Shown here: positions 901-30,484 of the stretch, one piece after another
Layout: each line of letters begins with the position of its first letter
How positions within the stretch are numbered: the first letter of the stretch is position 1
Assembly (NCBI GenBank): GCA_001795615.1
Contig: MGKI01000014.1
Location: 69,380-133,379, forward strand
Direction of reading: 5' to 3'
DNA length: 64,000 nucleotides
From: Candidatus Yanofskybacteria bacterium RIFCSPLOWO2_01_FULL_42_49
Lineage (GTDB): Bacteria; Patescibacteriota; Minisyncoccia; 2-02-FULL-40-12; GWA2-44-9
Program-made: the position numbers and the translations under genes
Notes under the pieces: generated by a model
What the model was told of the DNA's origin: nothing
What the model saw: the letters and a program-made list of their open reading frames with translations, nothing else
The model's database searches: none

Positions 901-923
901 TCCTCGCCAGACGAGGATTTTTA
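900..923 (+). terminator. Rho-independent terminator after the HAD gene
   Basis: A 7 bp stem ATCCTCG/CGAGGAT with loop CCAGA is followed by TTTTT. It overlaps the TAA stop. Confidence 0.6.
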
Positions 924-998
924 CTTTTATGACCTCATTGACAAAACCTAAATAAATTTATAAGTTTTCACGGGACTTTGAAATTTTGAAGGATTCCG

Positions 999-1952: not shown

Positions 1953-2015
1953 GGGTCGCTTTTGTTTTAATAATCTCATTGCTAATTTAATAAACATACT
2001 GTATGCTCATAAAAA

Positions 2016-2892
2016 TTGAACTTTAAAAATGAGGTTGATATGACAGTCTTGAAAGACAAAGCCAGGCAAATTAGATTGTTGGTTTTGGACATGATTTACC
2101 GCGCTAAAACCAGTCATATTGGAACAGCTTTTTCTTGTGCTGATATTTTAGCCGCCCTTTACTTTGGGAATGTCATGAACATACAACCAGAGTCACCATC
2201 TTGGCCCGAAAGAGACAGATTTATTTTAAGCAAAGGCCATGGCTGCTCCGCTTTTTACGCTGCTTTAGCGTTAAAAGGTTATTTTCCCTTAGAAATACTT
2301 GGACAATTTAGCCAGGATGGTTCAAATATTTCTTGTCATTCTACTCTGGGAGTTCTGCCCGGTATTGAAGCTACTGGCGGATCTGGTGGCCATGGTTTAA
2401 GCATCGGCGCGGGTATGGCTTTAGCGGCAAAATTAGATAGCAGAAGTTCTCAAATATTCGTACTAACCGGAGACGGAGAATGCCAGGAAGGTTCAATTTG
2501 GGAAGCAGCCATGTTTGCCGGGCAACATCAACTAAACAACCTAACCCTTATCGTAGATAACAACCAATTGCAAATTCTCGGTAAAACCAGAGAGATAATC
2601 AATCCGGAGCCGTTGCTAGATAAATTTAATGCTTTTAATTGGCAGATTAAACAAAATAAATATCAGGAAAGCCGTTTTTTCTCTTGAAGAACATAGTATT
2701 TACGGCGGTTTGGGAAGCGCGATTGCCGAAGTTATCAGCGAAGCCGGTTTTGAAGGAAAGCCGCCGGTTTTTAGAATGTTAGACGTCAAGGACAAATTCA
2801 CTTCTGTGATCGGTTCCGTAAGAACGCTTAGAAAAGACAATAATATAGACAGCGACAGTATCGTTAAAGAAATCTTACATTTAACGACCTAG
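2016..2892 (+). pseudogene. Transketolase remnant with an internal deletion and frame change
   Basis: ORF 2016-2687 encodes the N-terminal (TPP-binding) part, with GHGCSAFYAALALKGYF and TGDGECQEGSIWEAAMFAGQHQLNNLTLIVDNN. It stops early after FNAFNWQ. The overlapping ORF 2629-2892 in another frame encodes only the extreme C-terminal ~80 aa of the C-terminal subunit (EEHSIYGGLGSAIAEVISEAG...). The whole pyrimidine-binding domain (~250-300 aa) is missing. The likely original start is ATG 2040, with GAGG 7 nt upstream. Confidence 0.55.
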
Positions 2893-4003: not shown

Positions 4004-5156
4004 TATGGTTTTTTTCTAAAAAATCTTTAACTACTTTAAAATCGTTAAAATATTTTGACTCCGGTCTGGTCGCATCGTTGGTGGGATGATATTTATAATA
4101 TATACTTTCAAGAAGCGGCCAGCGCGAAACAAAATATCTTGCTTTTTTAAACAAACCTCGTCCCAGCCGGGCAGATGTTGGCCGAGTAGGGGTAGATTTA
4201 AAATGACCGATCGTTTGGGTAACAGGCGGCCAATCGGTCTCCAAAGTAAACTGGCGCGCAAGATAAAGAACAAATATCCATTTGGCAATTTTTAATCCTT
4301 CTTCCTCTGTATACCCTTTTTCTCTTATGATTTCAGCGAATTCCTTATGGGCTATCGCCCATTGGCTGCTCATATTTGGATCTGTCACGACATCAACCGT
4401 TAAACTATGGGTAAAACTGTAACGGTTACTACTCTTTTGCATGACATACCCTAATTTGTCAAGCACTTTAAATTTACCGGAAATTACCAATATAGAAGTT
4501 GATAAAAATTCCAAGATATGTTCAGTCAAAGAAAAATACTTAGTAACATTTCGAATTGATTTTTCCAACTCAACGCTTCTAACCACGAAACAAATAAAAG
4601 CTACGTTTCTGATGGAAACTTCGGAGTTGTTAATCTTTAGATCAAACCAAAACTCCTTAACCCTGGCCAGCATATTATCATCTTCAAGCGACCTGCCATG
4701 CGGCAGTGTCTGACGCTCAATGATGCCGTAGGGCTTATTATAATTTTTCTTCTGAAAACTAAAATTAATCTGCTTTCCGGCGCAAGTTGCATAATCGGGA
4801 TTTTTTTCCAAAAAATCCGCGCATTCAGACATTGTACTGGGAATAAGAAGGTCGTCATCTCCCATCTGAATGCAGTACTTTTCTTTTACTTGGGGCAAAA
4901 GTTGATACAAACAATCTTTCCCCGGCGGAGCCCATTGATATATTATACTTAACTTCTTAAATTTCTTTATCTCTTTTTTTAACTTATCCGCATTCTCTGG
5001 ATTACTACTATCCAAAACATAAATCGGATGGGGACTATTCATCAATTCATAGAACTCAAACTGCCTCAATATAAAATCGGGACGGTTCATTGTTGGAATT
5101 AGGATGGCTACTTTAGTCATTGTTGAATGGTATAATTTGGGTACGATAAAGTCCAT
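3996..5156 (-). CDS. Divergent GT-A fold (GT2-like) glycosyltransferase, paralog 2 (tandem duplicate of paralog 1)
   Basis: TKVAILIPTMNRPDFILRQFEFYELMNSPHPIYVLDSSNPEN is near-identical to paralog 1, and the C-terminus ...TRPESKYFNDFKVVKDF is also conserved. Probable start is MTKVAIL at ~5120. Long nucleotide stretches are shared with paralog 1, for example around 3895-3990 and 5040-5100. Confidence 0.55.
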   Translation of the reverse strand: MDFIVPKLYHSTMTKVAILIPTMNRPDFILRQFEFYELMNSPHPIYVLDSSNPENADKLKKEIKKFKKLSIIYQWAPPGKDCLYQLLPQVKEKYCIQMGDDDLLIPSTMSECADFLEKNPDYATCAGKQINFSFQKKNYNKPYGIIERQTLPHGRSLEDDNMLARVKEFWFDLKINNSEVSIRNVAFICFVVRSVELEKSIRNVTKYFSLTEHILEFLSTSILVISGKFKVLDKLGYVMQKSSNRYSFTHSLTVDVVTDPNMSSQWAIAHKEFAEIIREKGYTEEEGLKIAKWIFVLYLARQFTLETDWPPVTQTIGHFKSTPTRPTSARLGRGLFKKARYFVSRWPLLESIYYKYHPTNDATRPESKYFNDFKVVKDFLEKNHND

Positions 5157-5278: not shown

Positions 5279-6664
5279 ATGCTCAAGAATGTGAACCCAA
5301 ATATATTACAAATAACCAATGCCTTTATGTATACCGAATACCCCCACAAGAGTTTTTGGTCAACTGATATGGGAAGTGAAGATTGTCATTCGGCGCTACT
5401 TGAATTATTAACCGATGAGCCCAATGTCCCTCTTTTGCTCTATGTCCATATATTGTACTGCACAAAACTTTGCTGGTTCTGTAATTGTCACATAGGAGAG
5501 ATCACCCAAAGCCAAGACAAGAGAAAAGATTATCTTGAGCTTCTTTATTCAGAAATACGATTGTTTAAGAAACTTTTTGACAAACACTCTTTGGCTCCGA
5601 ATTTTACAGAAATACATCTAGGAGGCGGATCTCCTACGGATCTTAGCATGAATGACTTTAGCCGACTGGTAGAAAATTTGAGTTCAATCGTAGATATCAA
5701 AAACTTGAGTGAATTTTCTATTGAAATAGATCCAAGACACAGCAGCAGAGAAATGCTTAGATTTTACCATAACCAAGGAATAAACCGAATTTCCTTTGGA
5801 ATTCAGGACTTTGACCCTGGTGTCCAAAAAGCCATTAACAGAATCCAGCCGATAGAGCTTGTAGAAAAACTTATGGGGCCGGAAATTAGTGATCTTTTCC
5901 CCAATGGTATAAATTTTGACATTATTTGCGGCCTGCCTCATCAAACAACCGAAACAATCAAGAGAACGATGGATGAATGTGTCCGTCTTTCGCCGGATAG
6001 GATTTGCTTCAATTATCTCCACCAGGCTCCCGAATTTTCAAAACATCAGCGACTTATGTCTGACGGTAAATTTGGAAGACCAGATCATCTTCCGGATTAT
6101 TATGAGAGGAAAAAACTCTTCACTATAGCCATGGAAACATTGATTAAAGCCGGCTATATCCGCACCGGATATGACCATTTTGCCAAACCAACTGATGCCG
6201 TGGCCAAGGCGATGGCAGAAGGTAAAATGCAATGGAATGCATTGGGAGTTACTGCGGGAAGATACACCAGTATTATTGGCGTGGGAATCCAGAGTTTTAG
6301 CACAATCGGCAATTATTATTTTCAGAATTTTTATGACTTGAAAAAATACCGGGAATCTTTGAGACAAGGACAATTTCCGATTTTCCGCGGCCATCGGCAA
6401 AACCAAGATGATCTTATCAGAAGAGATGTTATTCAAACTTTAAGAAGTTTCTTTTCTATAGATTTCAGATGTATTGACGAAAAATACGCTATTAATTTTG
6501 AGGAATATTTCGATCCAGAACTTGTGGCATTAGATGATTATGTAAGGGACGGCCTGATAGAAATAAAAGACAGGTCGATTATTATTACTGAGAAAGGGCA
6601 TCAATTCGCTAATACTGTCTGTTATGTATTTGATAAATATAAAAAAAATCGGCCCAAATTTTAA
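5279..6664 (+). CDS. HemN-like radical SAM enzyme (coproporphyrinogen III oxidase-like / class C radical SAM family)
   Basis: CTKLCWFCNC gives the HemN-type CxxxCxxCxC cluster, and HLGGGSPT matches the HemN GGGTP-like motif. Length is 461 aa and a terminator follows. Confidence 0.8.
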   Translation: MLKNVNPNILQITNAFMYTEYPHKSFWSTDMGSEDCHSALLELLTDEPNVPLLLYVHILYCTKLCWFCNCHIGEITQSQDKRKDYLELLYSEIRLFKKLFDKHSLAPNFTEIHLGGGSPTDLSMNDFSRLVENLSSIVDIKNLSEFSIEIDPRHSSREMLRFYHNQGINRISFGIQDFDPGVQKAINRIQPIELVEKLMGPEISDLFPNGINFDIICGLPHQTTETIKRTMDECVRLSPDRICFNYLHQAPEFSKHQRLMSDGKFGRPDHLPDYYERKKLFTIAMETLIKAGYIRTGYDHFAKPTDAVAKAMAEGKMQWNALGVTAGRYTSIIGVGIQSFSTIGNYYFQNFYDLKKYRESLRQGQFPIFRGHRQNQDDLIRRDVIQTLRSFFSIDFRCIDEKYAINFEEYFDPELVALDDYVRDGLIEIKDRSIIITEKGHQFANTVCYVFDKYKKNRPKF

Positions 6665-6751: not shown

Positions 6752-7852
6752 ATGGGCAATGAACAAAATACAAAAGTAGCCATATCAATATCCACAATGA
6801 ACCGGCCGGATTTCTTGGCTCGTACTCTTAATTATTACGCAAAATGTAAATCCCCCCACCCGGTCTATTTGTCCGATTCAAGTAGCCCTGAAAATGTTAA
6901 GATAATTAAATCAATTCTGAAAAAACTAGATAATAAATTAGAGATACATTACAACTGGCTCCCGCCCGGGTTAGAACCCCACGAAAGAACGCTTTCTGTG
7001 GTAAAAGAAAAATACGCCCTCATTAACGGAGACGACGACTACGAAATACCGTCCACTTTAACTAAGTGCGCAGAATTTCTAGAGAATAACCCGGACTATA
7101 CTGCAGCTGGGGGTCATGGCATATCTTTTCGACTTAAAACCAGTGGTCCATACGGAGAAATAAAAAGGTTGGCCGACTATCCTTTTTATCCAATTGAAGC
7201 AAATACGGCCTCTCAAAGATTAAATGATTTTTTAAAAAAATGTTTCGTCGTCACATCCGGAGTAAATCGAGTTGAACATTTGAAGAAGATCTGGGTCATT
7301 CCGTTGCCCATAATAAACACCTGGAGCGAACTATTTCAGATAAGCCATTGCGCCGTGTCCGGTAAAATAAAATTGCTGGACTGCCTGGGCATAGTTCGGC
7401 ACATTCATGACCAGCAATATTACCTGACAAGTATGGTTGATTGGCTGACCGAAAAAGAATTCTATAATTATTATACGATATTCCAAGACCACCTTGCTAA
7501 AACAATCGCAAAAATTGACAATGTTTCCATAGACCAGGCAAAACAAACTGTTAAAAACGCCTTCTGGGAATACCTGCAAGTATATATGGCAAACGAAAAA
7601 AAAGGATTGGGGGCTAACAATGAGGAGTTAAAGACAAGCTCCCCTACTTTAAAAACGTTAAGAGTAACGCTCGGAAAGACTTTTCCTGTTTTAAAAACCG
7701 CTTACCGTCAATACTTAAGACCCTTTATCTCTGATAAACAACAGATGCATTATGACGCGATGAACTCACGCTCTCCATATTTTAAAGAGTTTCAGTTTGT
7801 AATGGATTCGTTCACGGGAAAGGATATAAAAACACATGACCAACAACAATAA
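6752..7852 (+). CDS. Divergent GT-A fold (GT2-like) glycosyltransferase, paralog 3
   Basis: TKVAISISTMNRPDFLARTL...PVYLSDSSSPEN and NGDDDYEIP share the architecture of the two paralogs at 2936-5156. It is the first gene of a long + strand operon. Confidence 0.55.
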   Translation: MGNEQNTKVAISISTMNRPDFLARTLNYYAKCKSPHPVYLSDSSSPENVKIIKSILKKLDNKLEIHYNWLPPGLEPHERTLSVVKEKYALINGDDDYEIPSTLTKCAEFLENNPDYTAAGGHGISFRLKTSGPYGEIKRLADYPFYPIEANTASQRLNDFLKKCFVVTSGVNRVEHLKKIWVIPLPIINTWSELFQISHCAVSGKIKLLDCLGIVRHIHDQQYYLTSMVDWLTEKEFYNYYTIFQDHLAKTIAKIDNVSIDQAKQTVKNAFWEYLQVYMANEKKGLGANNEELKTSSPTLKTLRVTLGKTFPVLKTAYRQYLRPFISDKQQMHYDAMNSRSPYFKEFQFVMDSFTGKDIKTHDQQQ

Positions 7853-8981
7853 ACAAAACAAAAGAAGCGTGGGATTTATCCCCTACGGCCGACAATCAAT
7901 TGATAATGATGATATTAAGGCCGTCGTTAATGTCTTGCGTTCGGACTGGTTGACCCAGGGTCCTGCGGTAAAACAATTTGAAGAGTCGCTGGCTAAATAT
8001 TGCAACGCCAAATATGCCGTAGCCGTTTCAAACGGCACGGCCGCTCTTCATTTAGCGTATTTAGCCGCCGATTTAAGCGCCGGTGATGAAGTTATCACAA
8101 CCCCAAATACATTTGCCGCAACTTCAAACATGCTCCTGGCGGTTGGAGCAAAACCTATTTTCTGTGATATACGGCTTGATAACTATAATCTTGACGAAAC
8201 AAAAATAGAAAAACTTGTCACCTCAAAAACAAAAGCCATAGTTCCGGTCCATTTTGGCGGCCATCCGTGCAATATGGACAAAATATTAAGTATGGCCAAA
8301 AAACACAGCCTGCTCGTAATTGAAGATGCTTGCCATGCTCTAGGCGCCTCATTTAAGAATGAGAAGGTTGGCGGCATCGGTGATATGTCGGTTTTCAGTT
8401 TTCATCCGGTCAAATCAATAACTACCGGTGAGGGTGGGGCAATTCTGACAAATAATCCTAAATTTTATAAAAAACTGGCCCATCTCCGAACACATGGCAT
8501 AACCAAAGATGAGGGTGGATTCAATGTTATGACCGCACTAGGTTATAACTACAGAATTACCGATATTCAGACGGCCTTGGGAATAAGTCAGTTGAAGAAA
8601 CTGGATAAATTTGTAAAAGCTAGGCAGAAGATTTTCGATATCTATAAAAAAGAGCTGGCCGGTGTAAAAGAGGTCTTCACTCCCTCTCTGGCCAAAAACT
8701 CCGTTTCTTCAAATCATCTTTTTGTAATAAGGACAAAAGACCCAACAAAAAGAAATCCTCTTGCTAATTTTCTTAAACAAAACGGCATAGGCGTAAATTT
8801 TCACTATCCAACCGTTTATTCCCACCCTTATTACAGAAAAAATGGCTATAAAGATGTAAAACTAGCCAACGCCGATCTATATCATAACTCCTGTATCACG
8901 CTTCCGCTTTATGTAACACTAGAAAAGAGCCAAATAAAATACATATGCAATAAAATAAAGGAATTCTTTAAAAAAGTTTAA
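7836..8981 (+). CDS. DegT/DnrJ/EryC1/StrS-family PLP-dependent sugar aminotransferase (PseC/LegC-like)
   Basis: Contains DWLTQGP and SNGTAALHLA, the Schiff-base lysine context FHPVKSITTGEGGAI, and YNYRITDIQTALG. The ORF overlaps the upstream gene. Confidence 0.85.
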   Translation: MTNNNKQNKRSVGFIPYGRQSIDNDDIKAVVNVLRSDWLTQGPAVKQFEESLAKYCNAKYAVAVSNGTAALHLAYLAADLSAGDEVITTPNTFAATSNMLLAVGAKPIFCDIRLDNYNLDETKIEKLVTSKTKAIVPVHFGGHPCNMDKILSMAKKHSLLVIEDACHALGASFKNEKVGGIGDMSVFSFHPVKSITTGEGGAILTNNPKFYKKLAHLRTHGITKDEGGFNVMTALGYNYRITDIQTALGISQLKKLDKFVKARQKIFDIYKKELAGVKEVFTPSLAKNSVSSNHLFVIRTKDPTKRNPLANFLKQNGIGVNFHYPTVYSHPYYRKNGYKDVKLANADLYHNSCITLPLYVTLEKSQIKYICNKIKEFFKKV

Positions 8982-9090
8982 AGTAGAGAATTAAAAGTTA
9001 AAAATCAAAGTTACAAGTTAAAATTTTTTATATATAACTTTGAATTTAAAACTTTAACTTTCAACTTTACACTTTTAACTTTTTACTTAT
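8982..9090. repeat. Palindromic AT-rich AAGTTAAAAG / AACTTTCAACTT repeat element filling the intergenic gap (copy A)
   Basis: The left arm (AAAAGTTAAAAATCAAAGTTACAAGTTAAAA) and the right arm (AACTTTGAATTTAAAACTTTAACTTTCAACTTTACACTTTTAACTTTTT) are near reverse complements. It shares the k-mers AAGTTAAAAG, ACTTTCAACT and CTTTTAACTT with copy B at 60874-61005. Confidence 0.7.
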
Positions 9091-10950
9091 ATGCAAACAT
9101 ACCTACTTTTTGAGATAGCCAATTCCTGCGCTGGGTCGAGCAAATTGATAGAAAAGTTGATAGATTCCCTACCGCAAGAGGATAATTTTGGCATTAACCC
9201 CCACACTCACTTTAGATATAGCTCAAAGAGCCAAAAACTAAAGCAAGTTAAAGTGAGTGTGGGGGTAAAATTTCAAGTTTATAAGTATAACGAAATTGCC
9301 TTATCCGACTATGAATGGTATCCGGTTTATAAGCAAACCTTCATAAATGCGCAGAATTGGAAAAAGATTTTTGCTCATGCAAAGAGCAAGGGCTTTGATA
9401 TCTGGATAGATGTTTTTGATCTATATAGCGTAGAAGTTATTAAAGATAATCTGCCGTTGGTAACCGGAATAAAACTCCAGTCTTCTGTTTTGAATAACCT
9501 CAAGGTATTGACTGCATTATCTGAAGTAATAAAAAACGGAAAGATTACGGTGATGTTAAATGTTGCCGGCAGAGACCTATCAAACATCAAAGAGTTGCTT
9601 AAAGATATAAGATCAAATTATTTTGACAATAAAATTATACTTCAAGCCGGTTTTCAGGGATATCCCACCGATAAAGAAGATCTAACCGTAAGTAAGGTCC
9701 GGATCTTAAAATCCGAATTTCCTAGTACAATAATATCTTATGCCGATCATGTTGACGGCAGTTCGCCTCTTGCGTTTGATATTCCGGTTTTTGCCGTATT
9801 GGCCGGCGCCGAGCACATAGAAAAGCATGTCTGCTTAGACAGGAAAAATACAAAATACGACTTCCAATCAGCAATTGAGCCCTATGAATGTGATCTATTA
9901 ATTTACAAGCTTAATGAAGCCGAAAAAATATTGGGAACAAAGTTTATACCAGACAAGGAAGCAAATTACCTCAAAACAACAATAGAGAAACCAATCGCTT
10001 CAGTTCATTTGAGAGCCGGCGATATTATAAATTTCAAAAACTTTGACTTTAGAAGAACCGGGCAGGAGGGGCTGACTGTAGCTGAAATAAAAGAATATAT
10101 GGAAAAAAGGTACGTACTGAAAAATGATATAAAGCCCGGGAAACCGATAACAAAAAATGATCTGAAAAAAGCCAGAGTAGGCGTTATTATCGCCTGCCGA
10201 ATGAAGTCAACCCGCTTAAAACATAAAGCCATATTACCCATTCAAGGACTGGCATCAATCGAAAGATGTATTTTGAACGCTAAAAAAATTAAATCGGCTG
10301 ATGAGATAATTTTGGCAACTTCAACCCTTGAAGAAGATCAAATTCTAAAAAAATACGCCTTAAAGCATAGGATCCGTTTTTTTGCCGGAGACCCCGAGGA
10401 TGTCATACTCCGCTATTTAGGCGTAGCTGAAAAATATAATCTTGATGTTACAATCCGAGTTACCGGTGATTGCCCGATAGTGTCGTATGAGATGGCCAAA
10501 TTTTTACTGAAAAGACATTTTGAAAAAGGTAATGATTATACTGGCCCCAAAGAATATTGTACCGGACAAAATAGCGAAATATACAGTGTAAATACATTAA
10601 AAAGAATTATAAAGTACTTGGGTGATGCCAGACATTCCGAATATATGACTTGGTATATGCTTACTAATAAAGACATCTTCCAAGTAGATATGGCCGAATT
10701 GCCCAAAGAATGGATCCGCGCTTACCGGCTAACCCTGGATGTCCAAGAAGACCTTGATATGTTTAATGCCTTATTTGAAAAATTGGGCAAAAAAGAAGTA
10801 AGCATTAAAAATGTATTCGGGGTAATTGACAAGAATCCCTGGATTCACGAACTTAACGATGCCATGGTTCTTAAATACAAATCGGATAAAAAATTAATAG
10901 ACATGCTGAATAAAGAAACGAGGATAAATCCGCCCAAAATTAAAAAATGA
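9091..10950 (+). CDS. Fusion protein: divergent NeuB-like (sialic/nonulosonic acid synthase-like TIM barrel + SAF domain) fused to an acylneuraminate cytidylyltransferase-like domain (SpsE-SpsF-like)
   Basis: N-terminal ~340 aa: the order of blocks matches NeuB (...GIKLQSSVLNNLKVL..., ...ISYADHVDGSSPLAFDIPVFAVLAGAEHIEKHVCLD...) and is followed by a SAF-like segment (VHLRAGDIINFKNFDF). C-terminal ~250 aa: ARVGVIIACRMKSTRLKHKAILPI...ILATS...IRVTGDCPIV is typical of CMP-sugar cytidylyltransferases (NeuA/PseF/SpsF). Confidence 0.6.
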   Translation: MQTYLLFEIANSCAGSSKLIEKLIDSLPQEDNFGINPHTHFRYSSKSQKLKQVKVSVGVKFQVYKYNEIALSDYEWYPVYKQTFINAQNWKKIFAHAKSKGFDIWIDVFDLYSVEVIKDNLPLVTGIKLQSSVLNNLKVLTALSEVIKNGKITVMLNVAGRDLSNIKELLKDIRSNYFDNKIILQAGFQGYPTDKEDLTVSKVRILKSEFPSTIISYADHVDGSSPLAFDIPVFAVLAGAEHIEKHVCLDRKNTKYDFQSAIEPYECDLLIYKLNEAEKILGTKFIPDKEANYLKTTIEKPIASVHLRAGDIINFKNFDFRRTGQEGLTVAEIKEYMEKRYVLKNDIKPGKPITKNDLKKARVGVIIACRMKSTRLKHKAILPIQGLASIERCILNAKKIKSADEIILATSTLEEDQILKKYALKHRIRFFAGDPEDVILRYLGVAEKYNLDVTIRVTGDCPIVSYEMAKFLLKRHFEKGNDYTGPKEYCTGQNSEIYSVNTLKRIIKYLGDARHSEYMTWYMLTNKDIFQVDMAELPKEWIRAYRLTLDVQEDLDMFNALFEKLGKKEVSIKNVFGVIDKNPWIHELNDAMVLKYKSDKKLIDMLNKETRINPPKIKK

Positions 10951-11516
10951 CAACAATATACATACTGGGCGGATTTTTAAAAAAAAATCGTGACGGAAGC
11001 TACGGCAGTGATCAATTAAGTTACATAAGGGTTCTGGCCGGATATTATCTTTACAAAAAATTATCTGGAAAAAACAAGATCGAACTGATTGTTTCTGGAA
11101 GCAGAGGAATTTATAGAGGAACTCCGGGCATTCCTCGAGTGGCAATAGTAATGAAACGGGAGCTGATAGAATTAGGCCTAAGCCCAAAAGAAATAAAAAT
11201 AGATAAAACGGACTTTACTTACAAGGAACTTATCTGGCTAAAAAAATATATAGCTAAAAAAACTGGGAAAGCATTTATTGTATCTAATGCCTACCACTTA
11301 CCCAGGATTAAAACGATGATCGATATTCTTCCAGAATTGAAGGAATTAAAAAATATAATTAAATTAGTCCCCGCGGATAAAATAGCAATTAAATTCGACG
11401 AAAAATTAAAACCCAGAATTAAAAAAGCCAATAAAAGTTCGGAAATGAAAAAAATAATTTCTTCTGAAAAAGAGGGTATACGCGCATTAAGATCAGGTAA
11501 CTATAAATTCAGGTGA
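10947..11516 (+). CDS. DUF218/YdcF(ElyC)-like domain protein
   Basis: ELIVSGSRG, TDFTYKEL and IVSNAYHLPR match the conserved DUF218 blocks. Length is 189 aa and the ORF overlaps both neighbours. Confidence 0.55.
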   Translation: MTTIYILGGFLKKNRDGSYGSDQLSYIRVLAGYYLYKKLSGKNKIELIVSGSRGIYRGTPGIPRVAIVMKRELIELGLSPKEIKIDKTDFTYKELIWLKKYIAKKTGKAFIVSNAYHLPRIKTMIDILPELKELKNIIKLVPADKIAIKFDEKLKPRIKKANKSSEMKKIISSEKEGIRALRSGNYKFR

Positions 11517-12583
11517 TGGAAAAACTCATAGTAAAAATAGGGAATGAGAAAAGGGAGATCGGCCCTAACCAGCCGGCTTTTATAATTGCCGAAATGTCGG
11601 CTAATCATGGACATAACATCAGGAAAGCGTACAAAATAATCGACGAAGTAGCCAAAGCTGGTGCAGATGCAATAAAACTTCAAACCTATACTCCGGACAC
11701 GATAACCATTGATTCAAATAAAAAATACTTCCAAGTAGAAATAAATGATGCTTGGAAAGGTCAGACTCTTTACAGCTTATATAGCAAAGCATACACACCT
11801 TGGGAGTGGATGCCAAAATTAAAAAAATACGCTGAAGACAAGGGACTGGTATTTTTTTCCTCTGTTTTTGACAATACTTCAGTTGATTTTCTAGAGACAA
11901 TTAACGTACCGATCTATAAGGTGGCATCCTTTGAAGTGGTCGATATTCCCCTTCTTAAAAGAATAGGCAGAACAAAAAAACCAGTTATTATATCCCGAGG
12001 TATGTCTACCCTCTCCGAACTGAAGTTAGCTCTTAAAACGTTAAAAAATGCCGGTACTTCTTCAATCGCAATCCTTCATTGTGTAAGTTCTTATCCGGCT
12101 AAATTCGACGAAATGAATATTTATACAATTACCGATCTAATAAAAAAATTCAATCATGTCGTCGGTCTTTCTGATCATTCTCCCGGAGCAACGGCCTCAA
12201 TAGCTGCCGTGAGCTTGGGAGCAAAAGTTATAGAAAAACACATAATTTTGTCCCGTTCCGAAGGCGGACCGGACGCTGCTTTTTCTCTTGAGCCAAATGA
12301 ATTCAAAAAACTTGTTGACTCTGTCCGAAATACTGAGGCTGCGTTGGGTAAGCCTTTTTACGGCTCAGGAATAAAAGAGTCGGAAAATATTGTTTTTAGA
12401 AAGTCACTTTTTGTCGTTGAAAATATTAAAAAGGGTCAAAAATTTACAGCTCAAAATATCCGTTCAATCCGCCCCGGACATGGTCTTGAACCGAAATATT
12501 ATGAGCGGGTTATTGGAAAACTAGCCAAAGTTGACCTAGAAAAAGGCACACCGCTTAAATTAATCCACATAGAAAATGTCTAA
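11513..12583 (+). CDS. N-acetylneuraminate/pseudaminate/legionaminate synthase family (NeuB/PseI/LegI) with C-terminal SAF domain
   Basis: The N-terminus GPNQPAFIIAEMSANHGHNIRKAYKIIDEVAKAGADAIKLQTY is canonical NeuB. It also contains GLSDHSPG, LGAKVIEKH and GPDAAFSLEP, and ends with a SAF-like tail. Confidence 0.85.
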   Translation: MMEKLIVKIGNEKREIGPNQPAFIIAEMSANHGHNIRKAYKIIDEVAKAGADAIKLQTYTPDTITIDSNKKYFQVEINDAWKGQTLYSLYSKAYTPWEWMPKLKKYAEDKGLVFFSSVFDNTSVDFLETINVPIYKVASFEVVDIPLLKRIGRTKKPVIISRGMSTLSELKLALKTLKNAGTSSIAILHCVSSYPAKFDEMNIYTITDLIKKFNHVVGLSDHSPGATASIAAVSLGAKVIEKHIILSRSEGGPDAAFSLEPNEFKKLVDSVRNTEAALGKPFYGSGIKESENIVFRKSLFVVENIKKGQKFTAQNIRSIRPGHGLEPKYYERVIGKLAKVDLEKGTPLKLIHIENV

Positions 12584-13190
12584 AATTGGGGTAATCAACT
12601 ATGGCGTTGGCAATCTGCAATCCGTGAAAAACTCACTGGATTTTTTAGGCATTCCAAACGAAATTGTCGACAAGTCGCAGGAGATAAGTAGTTTTGACAA
12701 AATAATTCTGCCGGGAGTAGGCGCTTTTGGAGCCGCAATAAAAAAATTAAATGACCTTGGTTTTACTGAAGAAATAAGAAAATTCTCCAGCCAAAATAAG
12801 CCAATCCTCGGTATCTGTCTAGGTATGCAGCTTCTATTTGATGAGAGTTACGAACACGGCCACCACCAAGGTTTAGGATTAATAAAGGGAAGGGTTCTGC
12901 CTTTCAATGAAAAAATAAAAAACCTGCCTCTGCCTCAAATCGGTTGGAATAACATAACTAAAGTAGGCGTATCCCCTATTTTAAAAAATGTCGAGGATAA
13001 TTCTTGTTTTTATTTTGTCCATAGTTTTTATTGCGAACCAGAGAAAAAAACTGCCACAATAGCTAGTTCTGATTATGGCATAAAATTTGCGGCAATTATT
13101 AACGAAAATAATATCTTCGGCTGCCAGTTCCACCCGGAAAAAAGCCAGTCGGCCGGACTTCATATATTAAAGAATTTCTCTAGCCTATGA
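12576..13190 (+). CDS. HisH-like glutamine amidotransferase subunit (glycan-associated, WbuY/PseA-partner type)
   Basis: Class I GATase motifs: ILPGVGAFG, GICLGMQLL and the FHPEKS triad. It sits next to HisF-like and PP-loop amidotransferase genes rather than his genes. Confidence 0.8.
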   Translation: MSKIGVINYGVGNLQSVKNSLDFLGIPNEIVDKSQEISSFDKIILPGVGAFGAAIKKLNDLGFTEEIRKFSSQNKPILGICLGMQLLFDESYEHGHHQGLGLIKGRVLPFNEKIKNLPLPQIGWNNITKVGVSPILKNVEDNSCFYFVHSFYCEPEKKTATIASSDYGIKFAAIINENNIFGCQFHPEKSQSAGLHILKNFSSL

Positions 13191-13972
13191 TTAAACGACG
13201 CTTAATACCAGTACTTTATATTAAGAATGGCCTTATCGTAAGAAGCGAGGGATTTTCTTATCACCACAATATAGGCAACGTGGTAAAAGAAGCTGCTCGC
13301 TATAATAGCTGGGATGTTGACGAGTTAATTTATATAGACATAAGTCGAGAAAAACACTACGATCTCCGCCGTGACGATTATAATGTAAACGCCTACAACT
13401 CAATCGGATCCATCATTAAAGAAATATCCAAGGTTTGCTTTATGCCCTTAACCTTTGGAGGGGGCATACGAACTATTGATGATGTCAGTTTCAGGATACA
13501 AAATGGGGCTGATAAAATAACCTTAAACACCGGCGCACTTGAAAATCCAAAATTAATAACTCAAGCAGCTGAGAGATATGGTTCACAAGCCGTGGTGATA
13601 TCTATTGATTATAAAATTATTGAAAACCAACCAATCGTATTCACTGATTTTGGCCAAAAAAATACGAGCAAATCTGTTTACAACTGGGTCAAAGAATGCG
13701 AAAATCTAGGTGCTGGAGAAATATTTATTAACTCGATTGACCGAGATGGAAAAGCCAACGGCTACGATATTGAAACAATCAATAAAACCGTCGCATCTAC
13801 TAAATTACCCACTATCGCTTGCGGCGGAGCTGGAAATCTTGAAGATTTTGTTGAACTGGCGAAACAAACAAATGTTTCAGCCGTAGCCGCTGGAAACATA
13901 TTTCACTTTACCGAGTTAAGTTATCCAAGATCAAAAATATTGCTTAAAAAAAATAATTTAAATTTCCGTTAA
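13187..13972 (+). CDS. HisF-like cyclase subunit (glycan-associated, WbuZ-type)
   Basis: (beta/alpha)8 HisF-like blocks: RLIPVLYIKNG, LTFGGGIRT and IACGGAGNLEDF. Its position fits the acetamidino-sugar trio. Confidence 0.8.
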   Translation: MIKRRLIPVLYIKNGLIVRSEGFSYHHNIGNVVKEAARYNSWDVDELIYIDISREKHYDLRRDDYNVNAYNSIGSIIKEISKVCFMPLTFGGGIRTIDDVSFRIQNGADKITLNTGALENPKLITQAAERYGSQAVVISIDYKIIENQPIVFTDFGQKNTSKSVYNWVKECENLGAGEIFINSIDRDGKANGYDIETINKTVASTKLPTIACGGAGNLEDFVELAKQTNVSAVAAGNIFHFTELSYPRSKILLKKNNLNFR

Positions 13973-13973
13973 C

Positions 13974-15173
13974 ATGACTAAGATAACATACTGCACAAAG
14001 TGCGTTTATCCCTCAAGTTCTGCTGTTCCCCTTGCCTTTGATGAAAAAGGGTTGTGTTCCGGCTGTAGAACCAGCGGAGAAAAAGCACAGATAGATTGGG
14101 ACGATCGCAAGAAAAAATTTGAGGATATTATTGAAGAATACCGCAATAAAGACGGCACTGGTTATGATCTAATAATTCCAGTTTCCGGAGGCAAGGACAG
14201 TTACTTTCAAGTCCATCTTATGAAAAAAATTTATGGACTTAATCCGCTTCTGGTAACCTACAACGGCAACAACTATACTCCGACCGGAATGGAAAATCTC
14301 ATTAACATGAGAAATGTTTTTGGAGTTGATCATATTTTCTTCACGGCCAACATTGATGTGCTGAAAACATTAAATCGCCTCGGTGTCCAAATTTTGGGTG
14401 ATATGCAGTGGCACTACGCTTCGGGCATCTACACATACCCAATAAGGGTAGCCGTAGAGACCAAGACGCCCTTGATGCTCTGGGGCGAACACGGGCATAT
14501 GGATCTTGGCGGAATGCACTCATATAATGACTTGGTGGAATTTACATACAGATATCGGCACGAACATGTAATTCGAGGATACGAGTGGACTGATTTTTTA
14601 AAAAGAGCGCCAGAATTCGGCGAAAAACTAACTAAACAACAACTAATCCCTTGGATGTATCCTTCAGATGAGGAGATAGCTAGTGTTGGTGTTCGGGGTA
14701 TTTATACCGCTAATTATTTTAAATGGGATGCCAATATCCACGGGCCAATGGTAATGGAAAAATACGGTTTTAAGGTACCCGATGAACCTTTTGAAAGGAC
14801 TTATAGAAAGATGTCAAACTTAGACGATATGCATGAGAATGGCGTACATGATTACCTAAAGTTTATAAAATTTGGCTATGGTCGAGCAACTGACCATGTT
14901 TGCAAAGATATCCGATCGGGCATTATGACCCGTGAACGAGGAATTGAATTAGTTAAAAACATGGACCACCTCAAACCAAAAGATACCCAGCGATGGTTAA
15001 AATATGTCGGTTGGACAGAAGAAAAATTTGATAAAATTGCCGATACTTTCCGCGACCAGCGAGTTTGGTGGATCAAAGACGGCCAGTGGTGGAAAGACAA
15101 TCTTTGGAGGGAACCATCTGCTTACGGAAAGGTCCACTTGGACCCGAAACAACAGAAAAAATACTTATTGTAA
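13974..15173 (+). CDS. N-acetyl sugar amidotransferase (PP-loop ATP pyrophosphatase; PseA/WbpG/WbuX-like)
   Basis: An N-terminal Cys-rich segment CTKCVYPSS...CSGCR is followed by the PP-loop SGGKDS. Length is 399 aa and it follows the HisH/HisF homologs. Confidence 0.8.
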   Translation: MTKITYCTKCVYPSSSAVPLAFDEKGLCSGCRTSGEKAQIDWDDRKKKFEDIIEEYRNKDGTGYDLIIPVSGGKDSYFQVHLMKKIYGLNPLLVTYNGNNYTPTGMENLINMRNVFGVDHIFFTANIDVLKTLNRLGVQILGDMQWHYASGIYTYPIRVAVETKTPLMLWGEHGHMDLGGMHSYNDLVEFTYRYRHEHVIRGYEWTDFLKRAPEFGEKLTKQQLIPWMYPSDEEIASVGVRGIYTANYFKWDANIHGPMVMEKYGFKVPDEPFERTYRKMSNLDDMHENGVHDYLKFIKFGYGRATDHVCKDIRSGIMTRERGIELVKNMDHLKPKDTQRWLKYVGWTEEKFDKIADTFRDQRVWWIKDGQWWKDNLWREPSAYGKVHLDPKQQKKYLL

Positions 15174-15231
15174 ATTTTACTTTTAACTCATTCATGCTAT
15201 CATCCTGTTAGTTTTTCAATACCGAGTAAAC

Positions 15232-15672
15232 ATGGGACTAATCATCAGACCAGCACAACTTGATGACGCACAAAGAATTTGGGAGATTAGGAATGAACCC
15301 CAAGCCAGGGCTGTTGCGGCCAACTCAGACGTAATTCCCCTCGCCCAGCATATTAGCTGGTTCGAGAACAAATATTTTAAACCCGAGGGTGATTCTTGTT
15401 TTGTGGCTGAAATTGACGGGAAAGTTATCGGTTATTGCCGTTTTGATTCGGAAGGAGATCATTACTTAAACTCAATCGCCGTTACTTCATCAATGCATGG
15501 CAAGGGAATCGGCACTATCCTACTCGGCCAATCAATAAAACAACTGAAAACAGACAAGCCGATCCACGCTGAGGTAAGGAGATATAATCTAGCATCTGTG
15601 AAAATATTTGAAAGAAACGGTTTTAAGAAAGTGTCCGAAGACAAAAAAAATATATATTATCAATTAACATAA
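15232..15672 (+). CDS. GNAT-family N-acetyltransferase (PseH-like)
   Basis: 146 aa with the GNAT acetyl-CoA pocket block HGKGIGTILL...RNGFKK. It is located inside the nonulosonate module. Confidence 0.7.
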   Translation: MGLIIRPAQLDDAQRIWEIRNEPQARAVAANSDVIPLAQHISWFENKYFKPEGDSCFVAEIDGKVIGYCRFDSEGDHYLNSIAVTSSMHGKGIGTILLGQSIKQLKTDKPIHAEVRRYNLASVKIFERNGFKKVSEDKKNIYYQLT

Positions 15673-15674
15673 AA

Positions 15675-15691
15675 GACCCCGAGAAGGGGTC
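15675..15691. terminator. Bidirectional hairpin between convergent genes
   Basis: GACCCC-GAGAA-GGGGTC. On the - strand it is followed by TTTTATG. It overlaps the stop codons of both flanking genes. Confidence 0.5.
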
Positions 15692-16761
15692 TATCGCTTA
15701 TAGTAATTTAAGACAGCTTGAGCAACACGCTCACCATTAAGCCCGTCTGCCTGAAAATATTTCTGCTGGGCTTGCAGCATAGCCGCTGTATCGCCGACAA
15801 GTATTCTCTTTAAACAGTTCCTGACTTCTTCTATGCTTTCTGCTTTTAAAGATGCGCCGAGATTAGTAATTGGCCATTCGGTCATAATGTTACTTCTTGC
15901 TTCTGAAAGCAATTGACCGATTTCAGGAGTCCAAATAGTAATTAGTGGTTTCCGTAAATAACACGCCTCAACCGTCATGGTTGAATATATTCCGACAACA
16001 ATGTCCGAGCCTGCCATAATTTCGCCGCTGGTAAGACCGCTGGGATTAACAACCTTGCCCATCCGTAAACAACTTAATTCCTTCCGATATTCTAAATAAA
16101 TCTTTTTAAACTCTTCTGTTGCCCCAGAAGAAACAACAGATGGATGATCTGCTAAGATAAGATAGATCGGATTATCAAAATTATTCACGGCCTCGACAAA
16201 CATTTTGACAGCTTTGGGCATTCCCCAAGCTTGACCGGCAAAAAATACCACCGGCCAGTTTTCTCTAAGCCTCAAAACATCATGTAATGCATATCGTGCA
16301 ATTTCAGTTTCAACTTCGGCATACTTATCAAAAAAAGGCATACCGGTTACATGAATATTAGATTCTGGATAGTTGGGCCACGACCTAAGAATCAGGCATT
16401 TCGCAAATTCATCCACGACGCAAACACCGTCCGGCAAGATATCCCACTTAAACGAAGCATGCCCTCCCCATACCTCCTCGACCAGAACGGTCGGCAGATT
16501 TCTTTGTTTAGCTTCTTTATTTAAACCTATTGGTATAGACCCGCCCTTGATAGCAACCGTTAAAATGACCAATGACGGCCCGAGGGAATTGAGTAAATCA
16601 CTTATTTTTTGTTCAGGAAAGAATAAAAGCTTGTCTTTCAAATATTCGGGCGCCAATCCTTCAGCATAAACAGATACTGGAATTCCTTTATCTTTAAGTA
16701 TGTTTATCACCGATAGACAAGCATTTACAGAACCGGTATCCCGTAACCCGAAAAGAACCAC
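15691..16761 (-). CDS. GT-B fold protein, candidate UDP-sugar hydrolase/2-epimerase of the nonulosonate pathway (PseG/NeuC-like)
   Basis: 356 aa with two Rossmann-like halves and a C-terminal G-rich loop ...AGSDIVVGIYSTMTVEA.... The assignment rests mainly on context and fold-level resemblance. Confidence 0.4.
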   Translation of the reverse strand: MVLFGLRDTGSVNACLSVINILKDKGIPVSVYAEGLAPEYLKDKLLFFPEQKISDLLNSLGPSLVILTVAIKGGSIPIGLNKEAKQRNLPTVLVEEVWGGHASFKWDILPDGVCVVDEFAKCLILRSWPNYPESNIHVTGMPFFDKYAEVETEIARYALHDVLRLRENWPVVFFAGQAWGMPKAVKMFVEAVNNFDNPIYLILADHPSVVSSGATEEFKKIYLEYRKELSCLRMGKVVNPSGLTSGEIMAGSDIVVGIYSTMTVEACYLRKPLITIWTPEIGQLLSEARSNIMTEWPITNLGASLKAESIEEVRNCLKRILVGDTAAMLQAQQKYFQADGLNGERVAQAVLNYYKR

Positions 16762-30465: not shown

Positions 30466-30484
30466 GTACGGCCGCCTGTTTAAA

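What the first reader, a model, noticed from the sequence alone, without database searches (positions are those of the whole stretch)
9091..10950. Fused divergent NeuB-like domain plus cytidylyltransferase, alongside a second canonical NeuB-family synthase
The 619 aa ORF joins a recognisable but strongly diverged NeuB/SAF-like N-terminal region to a CMP-transferase domain; the nearest described arrangement is SpsE next to SpsF. A canonical NeuB-family synthase is encoded 600 bp downstream. Two synthase-like domains in one operon suggests either two different nonulosonates or a non-catalytic scaffold domain channelling product to the cytidylyltransferase.
Basis: partly seen in the sequence, partly recalled or inferred. 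Interest (0 to 1): 0.55.

Follow-up and report, generated by a model that had tools for sequence, protein, structure and literature searches.

The report
NeuB-like domain fused to CMP-pseudaminate synthetase
This gene joins a remodelled copy of a sugar-acid synthase to the enzyme that activates the finished sugar acid; it belongs to a widespread, unstudied family that takes the place of the usual activating enzyme (PseF) in bacterial pseudaminic-acid operons.

Summary
ORF 9091-10950 (+, 619 aa) is a NeuB-type barrel with a SAF domain, joined to an SpsF-type cytidylyltransferase. A true PseI lies 563 bp downstream, at 11513-12583.

It is not a one-off. At least 284 species genomes and more than 780 protein clusters carry the same architecture, across CPR, Bacteroidota, Proteobacteria, Firmicutes, Fusobacterium and Methanospirillum.

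In 85 loci it sits where pseF normally sits (pseB-pseC-[fusion]-pseG-pseH-pseI). Of 56 loci with full flanks, 53 have a canonical NeuB downstream. Only one locus has another cytidylyltransferase.

The N-domain keeps the metal ligands (His215, His236), Glu25, Lys53, Lys129, Glu234, Asp247 and Arg314 without exception. The PEP pocket is changed throughout the family: Thr110 to Asp, Glu134 to Val/Ile, Ser154 to Asn, Asn184 to Gln, Ser213 to Ala. Partner PseIs keep the canonical residues.

Most likely PseI makes the nonulosonate and the C-domain makes the CMP-sugar. The N-domain is then neither a second PEP-dependent synthase nor a decayed scaffold. It is probably a conserved nonulosonate-binding or nonulosonate-converting module.

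I found no published characterisation. I rate it a new variant of a known kind, of moderate interest.

The parts
9091..10950 (+). Fusion ORF, 619 aa: NeuB-like barrel, SAF domain and SpsF-type cytidylyltransferase
9091..9945 (+). NeuB-like (beta/alpha)8 barrel, aa 1-285. It keeps E8, K60, K128, H220, E244, H246 and D257 (Nm E25, K53, K129, H215, E234, H236, D247). The donor pocket is remodelled: D107, V133, N157, Q189, A218 (Nm T110, E134, S154, N184, S213).
   Evidence: Pfam NeuB; residue mapping; eight strands in the AF2 model; Foldseek hits to 3g8r, 1xuu and 8h2c
9187..9255 (+). Variable, predicted-disordered insert (aa 33-55) between helix 1 and strand 2. It is absent from the nearest 595-aa relatives.
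   Evidence: pLDDT below 50 at aa 34-51; alignment
9982..10170 (+). SAF / antifreeze-like domain (aa 298-360) with invariant R322 (Nm Arg314)
10171..10947 (+). SpsF-type cytidylyltransferase domain (aa 361-619). Invariant R370, K372, S373, R375, K379, D460, D550 and D554.
   Evidence: Pfam CTP_transf_3; 6oew E 9e-22; TM-score (target-normalised) 0.88-0.90; invariant columns
11513..12583 (+). Canonical pseudaminic acid synthase PseI, the partner of the fusion
   Evidence: TIGR03586 454.7 bits against cutoff 340.25; 8h2c E 1e-82; all canonical residues present
7836..8981 (+). PseC aminotransferase, immediately upstream
   Evidence: TIGR03588 459.9 bits against cutoff 423.5
10947..11516 (+). DUF218 gene between the fusion and PseI, with overlapping (translationally coupled) ends. 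Among the loci surveyed it occurs only in CPR loci.
12576..15173 (+). HisH, WbuZ (HisF-like) and WbuX amidotransferase trio, the acetamidino-forming module
   Evidence: TIGR01855, TIGR03572 and TIGR03573 hits
15232..15672 (+). GNAT acetyltransferase, weakly PseH-like
6752..7852 (+). TIGR04440 glycosyltransferase, first gene of the coupled operon

Best explanation
The ORF is the CMP-nonulosonate (CMP-pseudaminic acid type) synthetase of this operon, in an alternative two-module form. PseI (11513-12583) condenses the 6-deoxy-hexose with PEP to give the pseudaminic-type acid. The C-terminal SpsF-type domain of the fusion then couples that acid to CTP.

The N-terminal domain descends from a NeuB-type synthase. 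It has kept the metal site, the carboxylate-binding lysines and the residues that hold the N-acyl sugar, but its PEP-phosphate pocket has been rebuilt. It therefore probably no longer performs the PEP condensation. Instead it likely binds the free nonulosonate (possibly the open-chain form) and presents it to the attached cytidylyltransferase.

Shown here: the architecture, the family, the pseF-slot synteny, the dependence on a canonical PseI, and the residue pattern. Inferred: loss of PEP use, what the N-domain binds, and the hand-off.
For: 1. Family size. At least 284 species genomes carry it, 780 protein clusters score E <= 1e-100, and all share the architecture.
2. Synteny. The median layout across 85 loci is PseB (-2.3 kb; TIGR03589 502 bits), PseC (-1.2 kb; TIGR03588 566 bits), the fusion, then PseG (+2.2 kb; TIGR03590 172 bits), all above their cutoffs. 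Ignavibacteria L007 shows the exact pseB-pseC-fusion-pseG-pseH-pseI order.
3. Only cytidylyltransferase. It is the only CTP_transf_3 protein in the whole window, in the five loci that carry precomputed Pfam annotation, and in 84 of 85 loci by my own HMM.
4. Canonical partner. 53 of 56 full-flank loci have a canonical NeuB. 76 of 78 partners lie downstream on the same strand, at a median of 1.6 kb. 72 of 78 are closest to C. jejuni PseI.
5. Residues. Across 114 family members E25, K53, K129, H215, E234, H236, D247 and R314 are invariant, while T110 is D, E134 is V/I/T, S154 is N, N184 is Q and S213 is A. Partner PseIs keep S132 (77/78), E/D134 (77/78), S154 (75/78) and S213 (78/78).
6. Literature. 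Ser132, Ser154 and Ser213 bind the PEP phosphate and are described as fully conserved in sialic acid synthases; Asp247, Gln55, Tyr186 and Arg314 bind the sugar; His215 and His236 bind Mn (PMC11339185).
7. Other forms. A split form exists, with the NeuB-like gene directly followed by a separate CTP_transf_3 gene in a pse operon (L088). A triple fusion has the order canonical NeuB, NeuB-like, cytidylyltransferase (P0143).
8. Precedent. An SpsF-like domain fused to an aldo-keto reductase after PseC in Vibrionaceae was proposed to replace NeuA (PMC7371886).
Against: No biochemistry exists for any family member that I could find. The pocket substitutions are to polar Asn, Gln and Asp, plus an invariant Q130, so a phosphate or another anion could still be bound in a new way; PEP use is not excluded. 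Retention of every metal and acid/base residue is more than simple binding would seem to need, which points towards catalysis. Three full-flank loci (L006, L039, L048) show no canonical NeuB within 10 kb, with an unchanged signature. The window itself lacks PseB and PseG, so its exact sugar is uncertain. My cytidylyltransferase HMM may miss very distant PseF types.
Confidence: 0.5

Rival explanations
1. The N-domain is a new enzyme acting between the synthase and the cytidylyltransferase. It would be a metal-dependent, PEP-independent reaction on the free nonulosonate, for example retro-aldol/aldol inversion at C4. The fused SpsF-type cytidylyltransferase would then trap the converted sugar.
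For: Active-site positions are the most conserved part of the domain: 11 of 16 invariant against 13 of 344 elsewhere, p = 3e-11. Metal, Glu and Lys residues are all retained, while the phosphate serines are not. The domain order in the triple fusion P0143 (synthase, NeuB-like, cytidylyltransferase) would match the reaction order. Aldo-keto reductase and short-chain dehydrogenase genes recur next to the module, and an 880-aa NeuB + AKR + cytidylyltransferase protein exists (P0321). The Vibrio cluster with an AKR-SpsF fusion gives a PseAc2 with a different MS/MS pattern, which the authors suggest is an epimer (PMC7371886). F. nucleatum, the source of glycero-L-gluco fusaminic acid, carries the fusion in an O-antigen-like locus (L091).
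Against: The evidence is purely circumstantial. No NeuB/KDO8PS/DAHPS-superfamily member is known to me to act without PEP. C4 configuration could equally be set by the synthase itself. The strain and sugar link for F. nucleatum rests on my recollection and was not tested.
Confidence: 0.2
2. The N-domain is a second, active PEP-dependent synthase, so the operon makes two different nonulosonates.
For: It is NeuB family by HMM and by fold. Metal and sugar ligands are intact. Polar Asn, Gln and Ser residues remain in the donor pocket. Three loci have no canonical NeuB nearby.
Against: The conserved operons carry one precursor set only. Two of the three 'fully conserved' phosphate serines and Glu134 are lost in every one of 114 members, but kept in the partners. 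95% of full-flank loci also keep a canonical PseI. One polypeptide carries both a canonical and a NeuB-like domain, so they are not redundant. There is a single cytidylyltransferase for two supposed products.
Confidence: 0.15
3. The N-domain is an inert structural scaffold. It would be a dimerisation platform, or a pseudo-subunit that pairs with PseI through the NeuB-type domain swap, with no ligand of its own.
For: NeuB enzymes are domain-swapped dimers in which the SAF domain caps the partner's barrel (PMC11339185). The SAF domain and Arg314 are retained. Fusion to, or adjacency with, PseI occurs.
Against: Invariance is concentrated in the ligand pocket, including both metal histidines and new family-specific pocket residues. 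A pure scaffold would not be expected to hold these fixed across 40% sequence identity and several phyla.
Confidence: 0.1

Closest known systems
Bacillus subtilis SpsE/SpsF pair (legionaminic acid pathway, PMC7439481)
   Same: A NeuB-family protein sits next to an SpsF-type (CTP_transf_3) cytidylyltransferase in a nonulosonate operon. SpsF is genetically required after the sugar is made.
   Different: SpsE is the pathway's real synthase and keeps T110, S132, E134, S154 and S213. Here the NeuB-like partner has a remodelled donor pocket, is fused to the transferase, and a separate canonical PseI is present as well. The operon context is Pse-type, not Leg-type.
Canonical PseF, CMP-pseudaminic acid synthetase (TIGR03584; H. 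pylori, C. jejuni, A. baumannii PsaC)
   Same: Same position in the operon (after pseC) and the same inferred reaction. It belongs to the same CTP_transf_3 superfamily.
   Different: There is no match to the PseF equivalog at E <= 1e-3. The domain is SpsF/6oew-type and carries an extra 360-aa NeuB-like and SAF module.
NeuB/PseI nonulosonate synthases (N. meningitidis NeuB 1xuu/1xuz; C. jejuni PseI 8h2c)
   Same: Same fold: TIM barrel plus antifreeze-like domain (target-normalised TM-score 0.70-0.78). The Mn ligands His215 and His236 are kept, as are Glu25, Lys53, Lys129, Glu234, Asp247 and Arg314.
   Different: Ser154 is Asn, Ser213 is Ala, Glu134 is Val, Thr110 is Asp and Asn184 is Gln, fixed family-wide. 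It scores far below the equivalog cutoffs.
Vibrionaceae bifunctional aldo-keto reductase + SpsF-like protein encoded after PseC (PMC7371886)
   Same: An SpsF-type cytidylyltransferase fused to a different TIM-barrel domain, in the pseF/NeuA slot of a Pse-type cluster. The authors propose that it replaces NeuA.
   Different: The partner domain is an aldo-keto reductase, not NeuB-like. A Schinkia protein combines all three domains (P0321).
Leptospira borgpetersenii cytidylyltransferase, PDB 6oew
   Same: It is the closest solved structure to the C-domain (E 9e-22; target-normalised TM-score 0.88-0.90, rmsd 2.2-2.5 A).
   Different: It is a stand-alone 250-aa protein from structural genomics, and I found no functional data on it.
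CMP-sialic acid synthetases with an accessory second domain (vertebrate CMAS C-terminal phosphatase-like domain; E. coli/GBS NeuA esterase domain). This comparison is from my own knowledge and was not tested here.
   Same: A nonulosonate cytidylyltransferase is joined to a domain derived from another enzyme of the same pathway neighbourhood.
   Different: The accessory fold is different and sits on the other side (C-terminal). There is no NeuB-type domain.

Membership tests
NeuB-family nonulosonate synthase (PF03102; TIGR03569 / TIGR03586) | Pfam NeuB domain above the gathering score | tested here: met
   79.9 bits against 22.1, aa 60-284
NeuB-family nonulosonate synthase (PF03102; TIGR03569 / TIGR03586) | Equivalog-level score as NeuB or PseI | tested here: not met
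   TIGR03569 93.5 against 399.65; TIGR03586 64.4 against 340.25
NeuB-family nonulosonate synthase (PF03102; TIGR03569 / TIGR03586) | TIM barrel plus C-terminal antifreeze-like (SAF) domain | tested here: met
   AF2 model with eight strands plus a SAF domain, pLDDT 91. Foldseek hits to 3g8r, 1xuu and 8h2c, E 1e-16 to 1e-20.
NeuB-family nonulosonate synthase (PF03102; TIGR03569 / TIGR03586) | Metal ligands His215 and His236 | tested here: met
   H220 and H246, invariant in 114 of 114 members
NeuB-family nonulosonate synthase (PF03102; TIGR03569 / TIGR03586) | PEP-phosphate serines Ser132, Ser154 and Ser213, described as 'fully conserved' (PMC11339185) | tested here: not met
   The window protein has S, N, A. 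Family-wide, Ser154 is Asn in 113 of 114, Ser213 is Ala in 112 of 114, and Ser132 varies (S/P/A). Partner PseIs keep all three.
NeuB-family nonulosonate synthase (PF03102; TIGR03569 / TIGR03586) | Sugar-binding Gln55, Tyr186, Asp247 and Arg314 | tested here: met
   Q62, Y191, D257 and R322. Asp and Arg are invariant; Gln is Q or H; Tyr is mostly Y.
NeuB-family nonulosonate synthase (PF03102; TIGR03569 / TIGR03586) | PEP-dependent condensation activity | not testable with these tools
   Needs an enzyme assay
CMP-nonulosonate / CMP-Kdo synthetase superfamily (PF02348 CTP_transf_3), SpsF type | Pfam CTP_transf_3 above the gathering score, with near-full coverage | tested here: met
   78.1 bits against 22.6, model positions 2-204 of 217
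CMP-nonulosonate / CMP-Kdo synthetase superfamily (PF02348 CTP_transf_3), SpsF type | N-terminal Arg/Lys nucleotide-binding loop and acidic motifs | tested here: met
   R370, K372, S373, R375, K379, D460 (TGDCP), D550 and D554 are invariant in 94 sequences. Assigning roles to these residues rests on my knowledge of KdsB/NeuA.
CMP-nonulosonate / CMP-Kdo synthetase superfamily (PF02348 CTP_transf_3), SpsF type | Structural match to a solved SpsF-type enzyme | tested here: met
   6oew, target-normalised TM-score 0.88-0.90; sequence E 9e-22
PseF equivalog (TIGR03584) | Match to the PseF equivalog model | tested here: not met
   Not among the NCBIfam hits at E <= 1e-3
PseF equivalog (TIGR03584) | Operon position after pseC, as the sole cytidylyltransferase of a pse operon | tested here: met
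PseF equivalog (TIGR03584) | CTP + Pse gives CMP-Pse | not testable with these tools
   Needs an enzyme assay
PseI (downstream gene 11513-12583) | TIGR03586 above cutoff and a full catalytic residue set | tested here: met
   454.7 against 340.25; signature EKQSKSESSYSHEHDR, identical to C. jejuni PseI
SpsE/SpsF-like pair | The NeuB-family member next to SpsF is the pathway's only synthase, with canonical residues | tested here: not met
   SpsE is canonical. Here a separate PseI is present and the fused domain is remodelled.

The most novel reading that the evidence does not exclude
The NeuB-derived domain is a previously unrecognised PEP-independent enzyme. It would act on the free nonulosonate between the synthase and the cytidylyltransferase. 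One candidate reaction is a metal-dependent retro-aldol/aldol epimerisation at C4, converting the L-manno (pseudaminic) series to the L-gluco (fusaminic-type) series, with the fused SpsF-type transferase trapping the product. That would define a new reaction class in the NeuB/KDO8PS superfamily, and a biosynthetic route to nonulosonate isomers whose pathways are unknown.
Probability: 0.17. Interest if true: 0.8.

Novelty: new variant of a known kind. Interest (0 to 1): 0.45.

Why it matters
Pseudaminic-type sugars decorate flagella, capsules, O-antigens and S-layers, and their pathways are drug and glyco-engineering targets. Annotation pipelines currently call this protein 'N-acetylneuraminate synthase family', 'legionaminate synthase', 'SpsF' or even 'Kdo8N cytidylyltransferase'. 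Genome-based predictions of nonulosonate type and pathway completeness are therefore wrong or ambiguous for hundreds of species.

Showing that the module replaces PseF would fix those calls. Learning what the remodelled NeuB domain does could reveal either a built-in substrate hand-off device or a new sugar-isomer-forming step. It also documents a nonulosonate operon in a CPR (Yanofskybacteria-like) genome. I found no paper on that in the searchable library.

Tried and rejected
1. Assembly or frameshift chimera: rejected, because an identical protein occurs elsewhere, more than 100 homologues are full length, and the model is confident across the junction.
2. PDB 3g8r, the top Foldseek hit, as a solved member of the same clade: rejected, because it keeps T110, S132, S154 and S213.
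3. My first 'PseB' cluster, built by single linkage, mixed several SDR families and falsely suggested PseB in the window. I replaced it with phmmer and tblastn using a verified PseB, and with NCBIfam; none is present.
4. Stand-alone relatives P0215 and P0196 lie on 2-kb contigs, so their context is uninformative.
5. The afdb50 fold library was not available.
6. Literature searches for the fusion, for SpsF with PseF, for COG1861/COG2089, for nonulosonates in CPR and for fusaminic acid biosynthesis found no characterisation.
7. The three loci without a canonical NeuB do not have a reverted, synthase-like signature.
8. The small six-sequence alignment misplaces K53 and Q55 of the window protein because of the insert. 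The large alignments are the ones I rely on.
Full report
**Observation.** The ORF at 9091-10950 (+) is real: it has an ATG start and encodes 619 aa. Pfam finds three domains:
- NeuB at aa 60-284 (79.9 bits, E 2.6e-22, almost the whole model).
- SAF at aa 303-359, just below threshold.
- CTP_transf_3 at aa 365-560 (78.1 bits).

NCBIfam places the N-part far below the equivalog cutoffs: NeuB 93.5 against 399.65, and PseI 64.4 against 340.25. The C-part matches only Kdo-type cytidylyltransferase models weakly and does not match PseF. The gene 563 bp downstream (11513-12583) is a bona fide PseI: TIGR03586 scores 454.7 against a cutoff of 340.25, and C. jejuni PseI (8h2c) matches at E 1e-82.

An AlphaFold2 model built on 94 homologues is confident (pLDDT 91.3, pTM 0.73). 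It shows an eight-stranded barrel (aa 4-247), linker helices, a SAF domain (aa 300-360) and a Rossmann-type transferase (aa 363-610). Only aa 34-51 are disordered. Foldseek matches the N-part to 3g8r, NeuB (1xuu) and PseI (8h2c), and the C-part to the Leptospira cytidylyltransferase 6oew (target-normalised TM-score 0.88-0.90).

**Surroundings.** The ORF lies in a tightly coupled plus-strand operon, with overlapping stop and start codons:

| Coordinates | Gene |
|---|---|
| 6752-7852 | TIGR04440 glycosyltransferase |
| 7836-8981 | PseC |
| 9091-10950 | the fusion |
| 10947-11516 | DUF218 |
| 11513-12583 | PseI |
| 12576-13190 | HisH |
| 13187-13972 | WbuZ |
| 13974-15173 | WbuX |
| 15232-15672 | GNAT |

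The rest of the 64-kb window is a very large glycan island. It holds many GT4 and GT2 transferases, RmlD-like reductases, B12-radical-SAM enzymes, a carbamoyltransferase, and Wzy_C/TPR and PMT_2 membrane proteins. Every ORF of 110 aa or more was scanned, and no second cytidylyltransferase is present. No true PseB or PseG is present either. The closest genomic relatives are Candidatus Yanofskybacteria MAGs (84% identity), so the window most likely comes from a CPR bacterium.

**It is a family, not an oddity.**
- The protein search returned 272 hits, and nearly all of the 120 listed are 590-620 aa with both domains.
- A second search seeded from the Fusobacterium member gave 780 clusters at E <= 1e-100.
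- The species-genome scan found relatives in 284 genomes. These span CPR, Bacteroidota (Flavobacterium defluvii, Dyadobacter tibetensis, Adhaeribacter), Proteobacteria (Methylophilus, Pusillimonas), Firmicutes (Anaerobacillus, Geosporobacter), Brocadia, Omnitrophota and Arcobacteraceae. Fusobacterium and the archaeon Methanospirillum also carry it.
- Source names are inconsistent: 'N-acetylneuraminate synthase family', 'cytidylyltransferase domain-containing', 'legionaminate synthase', 'SpsF/sialic acid synthase', 'Kdo8N cytidylyltransferase'.

**Genomic context of the family.** I called ORFs in 85 non-redundant loci and searched them with HMMs of my own for three things: the canonical NeuB, the fusion N-domain and the fusion C-domain.
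- 74 loci have a canonical NeuB. Of the 56 loci with at least 8 kb on both sides, 53 (95%) do.
- 76 of 78 partners are downstream on the same strand, at a median distance of 1.6 kb.
- 72 of 78 partners are most similar to C. jejuni PseI.
- Only one locus has any other cytidylyltransferase-like ORF. The five loci, which carry precomputed Pfam annotation, show none.
- Clustering of the neighbours and naming by NCBIfam gives PseB (TIGR03589, 502 bits) at a median of -2.3 kb, PseC (566 bits) at -1.2 kb and PseG (172 bits) at +2.2 kb, all above their cutoffs. PseH-like GNATs and formyltransferases also recur.
- Ignavibacteria L007 reads pseB-pseC-fusion-pseG-pseH-pseI.

The fusion therefore occupies the pseF slot of pseudaminic-acid operons.

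**Other forms of the module.**
- A split form exists. In L088 a 342-aa NeuB-like gene is followed directly by a separate 239-aa CTP_transf_3 gene, again between PseC and the PseG/PseH/PseI genes.
- Larger fusions keep the NeuB-like domain immediately N-terminal to the transferase: GNAT + module; module + GT2 glycosyltransferase; canonical NeuB + NeuB-like + transferase (P0143, 963 aa); and NeuB + aldo-keto reductase + transferase (P0321).

**Active-site comparison.** I aligned 114 family members with N. meningitidis NeuB, C. jejuni PseI, B. subtilis SpsE and the window's PseI (repeated on the 85 locus proteins).

| NmNeuB position | Role (source) | Fusion family | Partner PseIs |
|---|---|---|---|
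| Glu25, Lys53, Lys129, Glu234 | role not checked here | invariant | conserved (76-78 of 78) |
| His215, His236 | Mn ligands (PMC11339185) | invariant | 77 of 78 each |
| Asp247, Arg314 | sugar binding (PMC11339185) | invariant | 78 and 76 of 78 |
| Thr110 | near the PEP carboxylate (PMC11339185) | Asp, 114 of 114 | Ser/Thr, 77 of 78 |
| Ser132 | PEP phosphate (PMC11339185) | varies (S/P/A) | Ser, 77 of 78 |
| Glu134 | role not found | Val/Ile/Thr, never Glu | Glu/Asp, 77 of 78 |
| Ser154 | PEP phosphate (PMC11339185) | Asn, 113 of 114 | Ser, 75 of 78 |
| Asn184 | not conserved in partners | Gln, 114 of 114 | mostly Ser |
| Ser213 | PEP phosphate (PMC11339185) | Ala, 112 of 114 | Ser, 78 of 78 |

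According to PMC11339185, Ser132, Ser154 and Ser213 hydrogen-bond the PEP phosphate and are 'fully conserved' in bacterial and mammalian synthases.

The pocket is not decaying. In a 94-sequence alignment at 41-90% identity, 11 of 16 pocket positions are invariant against 13 of 344 others (Fisher p = 3e-11). The new residues D107, Q130, N157 and Q189 are themselves invariant.

A scan of 1.84 billion representative proteins shows that the signature (Asp/Glu110, Gln184, non-Ser213, with an intact metal and sugar set) defines a broad subfamily. It includes both fused (about 590 aa) and stand-alone (about 335 aa) members.

**Interpretation.** Three things are well supported:
1. The C-domain is the operon's cytidylyltransferase, standing in for PseF.
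2. The canonical PseI is the synthase.
3. The N-domain is a distinct, selected paralogue and not a redundant synthase.

What the N-domain does is inferred. The pattern is sugar, metal and carboxylate contacts kept, and phosphate contacts replaced. That fits a site holding the phosphate-free product (the nonulosonate) rather than PEP. My leading reading is therefore a binding and hand-off module for the attached transferase (confidence 0.5 for the whole statement).

Retention of every metal and acid/base residue also fits a new PEP-independent reaction on the nonulosonate (0.2). Leads in that direction:
- The synthase, NeuB-like, transferase order in P0143.
- The recurrent aldo-keto reductase and short-chain dehydrogenase neighbours.
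- The suggestion of a Pse epimer from a Vibrio cluster with an AKR-SpsF fusion (PMC7371886).
- An F. nucleatum O-antigen-type locus that carries the fusion but no aminotransferase (L091).

Fusaminic acid is the glycero-L-gluco isomer (PMC7371886). By standard carbohydrate nomenclature it differs from the L-manno series at C4. That it was found in F. nucleatum is my recollection. None of this is tested.

A second active synthase (0.15) is disfavoured by the single precursor set, the lost serines, and coexistence with PseI even within one polypeptide. A purely inert scaffold (0.1) is disfavoured by the pocket conservation.

**Comparison with known systems.** The nearest described arrangement is indeed B. 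subtilis SpsE/SpsF (PMC7439481). However, SpsE is canonical and is the only synthase there. The nearest described replacement of NeuA/PseF by an SpsF-type fusion is the Vibrionaceae AKR-SpsF protein (PMC7371886). I found no paper describing or testing the NeuB-like + SpsF-type module.

**Verdict.**
- I rate it a new variant of a known kind: a CMP-nonulosonate synthetase with a NeuB-derived accessory domain.
- It is widespread, consistently mis-named in databases and biochemically uncharacterised.
- Interest is moderate (0.45). It would be higher if the N-domain proves to be a new enzyme.

Noticed in passing
window 6752-15672 (+); whole window: The pse-type operon has PseC, PseI and a cytidylyltransferase, but no PseB (inverting 4,6-dehydratase) and no PseG (UDP-sugar hydrolase) anywhere in the 64 kb. 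Two of the closest Yanofskybacteria loci (L008, L011) also lack PseB, and all CPR loci lack PseG.
   Followed up: partly
window 10947-11516 (+); L005, L008, L009, L011: A DUF218 gene is wedged between the fusion and PseI. Among the loci surveyed it occurs only in the CPR loci, exactly those that lack PseG. It may be a non-orthologous replacement of the hydrolase step. This is untested.
   Followed up: partly
window 2936-4003 (-), 3996-5156 (-), 6752-7852 (+): Three paralogous TIGR04440-type glycosyltransferases (133-135 bits each) flank the operon. Homologues occur in 7 of 85 fusion loci.
   Followed up: partly
window 12576-15173 (+): A HisH / WbuZ (HisF-like) / WbuX amidotransferase trio implies an acetamidino-modified nonulosonate. 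The same trio accompanies the fusion in 13 of 85 loci.
   Followed up: partly
window 9187-9255 (+), aa 33-55 of the fusion: A variable, predicted-disordered insert lies between helix 1 and strand 2 of the barrel. It is present at different lengths in some CPR homologues and absent from the nearest 595-aa relatives.
   Followed up: partly
proteins P0143, P0135, P0175, P0224, P0250, P0321: Larger fusions contain the module: canonical NeuB + NeuB-like + transferase; GNAT + module; transferase + NeuB-like + transferase; module + GT2 glycosyltransferase; NeuB + aldo-keto reductase + transferase (Schinkia azotoformans).
   Followed up: partly
L091 (F. nucleatum CP056014.1) 7205-15740: An O-antigen-type locus reads PseB-like, aldo-keto reductase, SDR, fusion, RmlD-like reductase, NeuB+SAF, GNAT, flippase, with no DegT aminotransferase. 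That would fit a 7-hydroxy (trideoxy) nonulosonate. A link to fusaminic acid is possible but was not tested.
   Followed up: no
window 241-2892 (+): A HAD hydrolase, an aldo-keto reductase (999-1952) and a truncated transketolase N-terminal piece (2016-2687, 223 aa, with no C-terminal partner) sit at the edge of the island. Homologues of the reductase occur in 12 of 85 fusion loci.
   Followed up: partly
window 18521-19414 (+): A weak MptE-like / Maf-like protein (26 bits, below the Pfam cutoff) is a candidate nonulosonate transferase. Homologues occur in 15 of 85 fusion loci.
   Followed up: partly
window 28789-32614 (-) and 5279-6664 (+): Two B12-binding radical SAM enzymes and a HemN-type radical SAM protein are embedded in the glycan island. 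Their roles were not examined.
   Followed up: no
window 55463-62055 (-): There is a run of large membrane proteins combining Wzy_C or PMT_2 domains with long TPR arrays, followed by an SH3_3 protein at 62133-63374.
   Followed up: no
L006 (Aminicenantes CP070627.1), L039 (Magasanikbacteria), L048: These three full-flank loci carry the fusion with no canonical NeuB within 10 kb, yet with the same remodelled signature. L006 sits next to FdtA, a polysialyltransferase-like gene and an NTP_transferase.
   Followed up: partly
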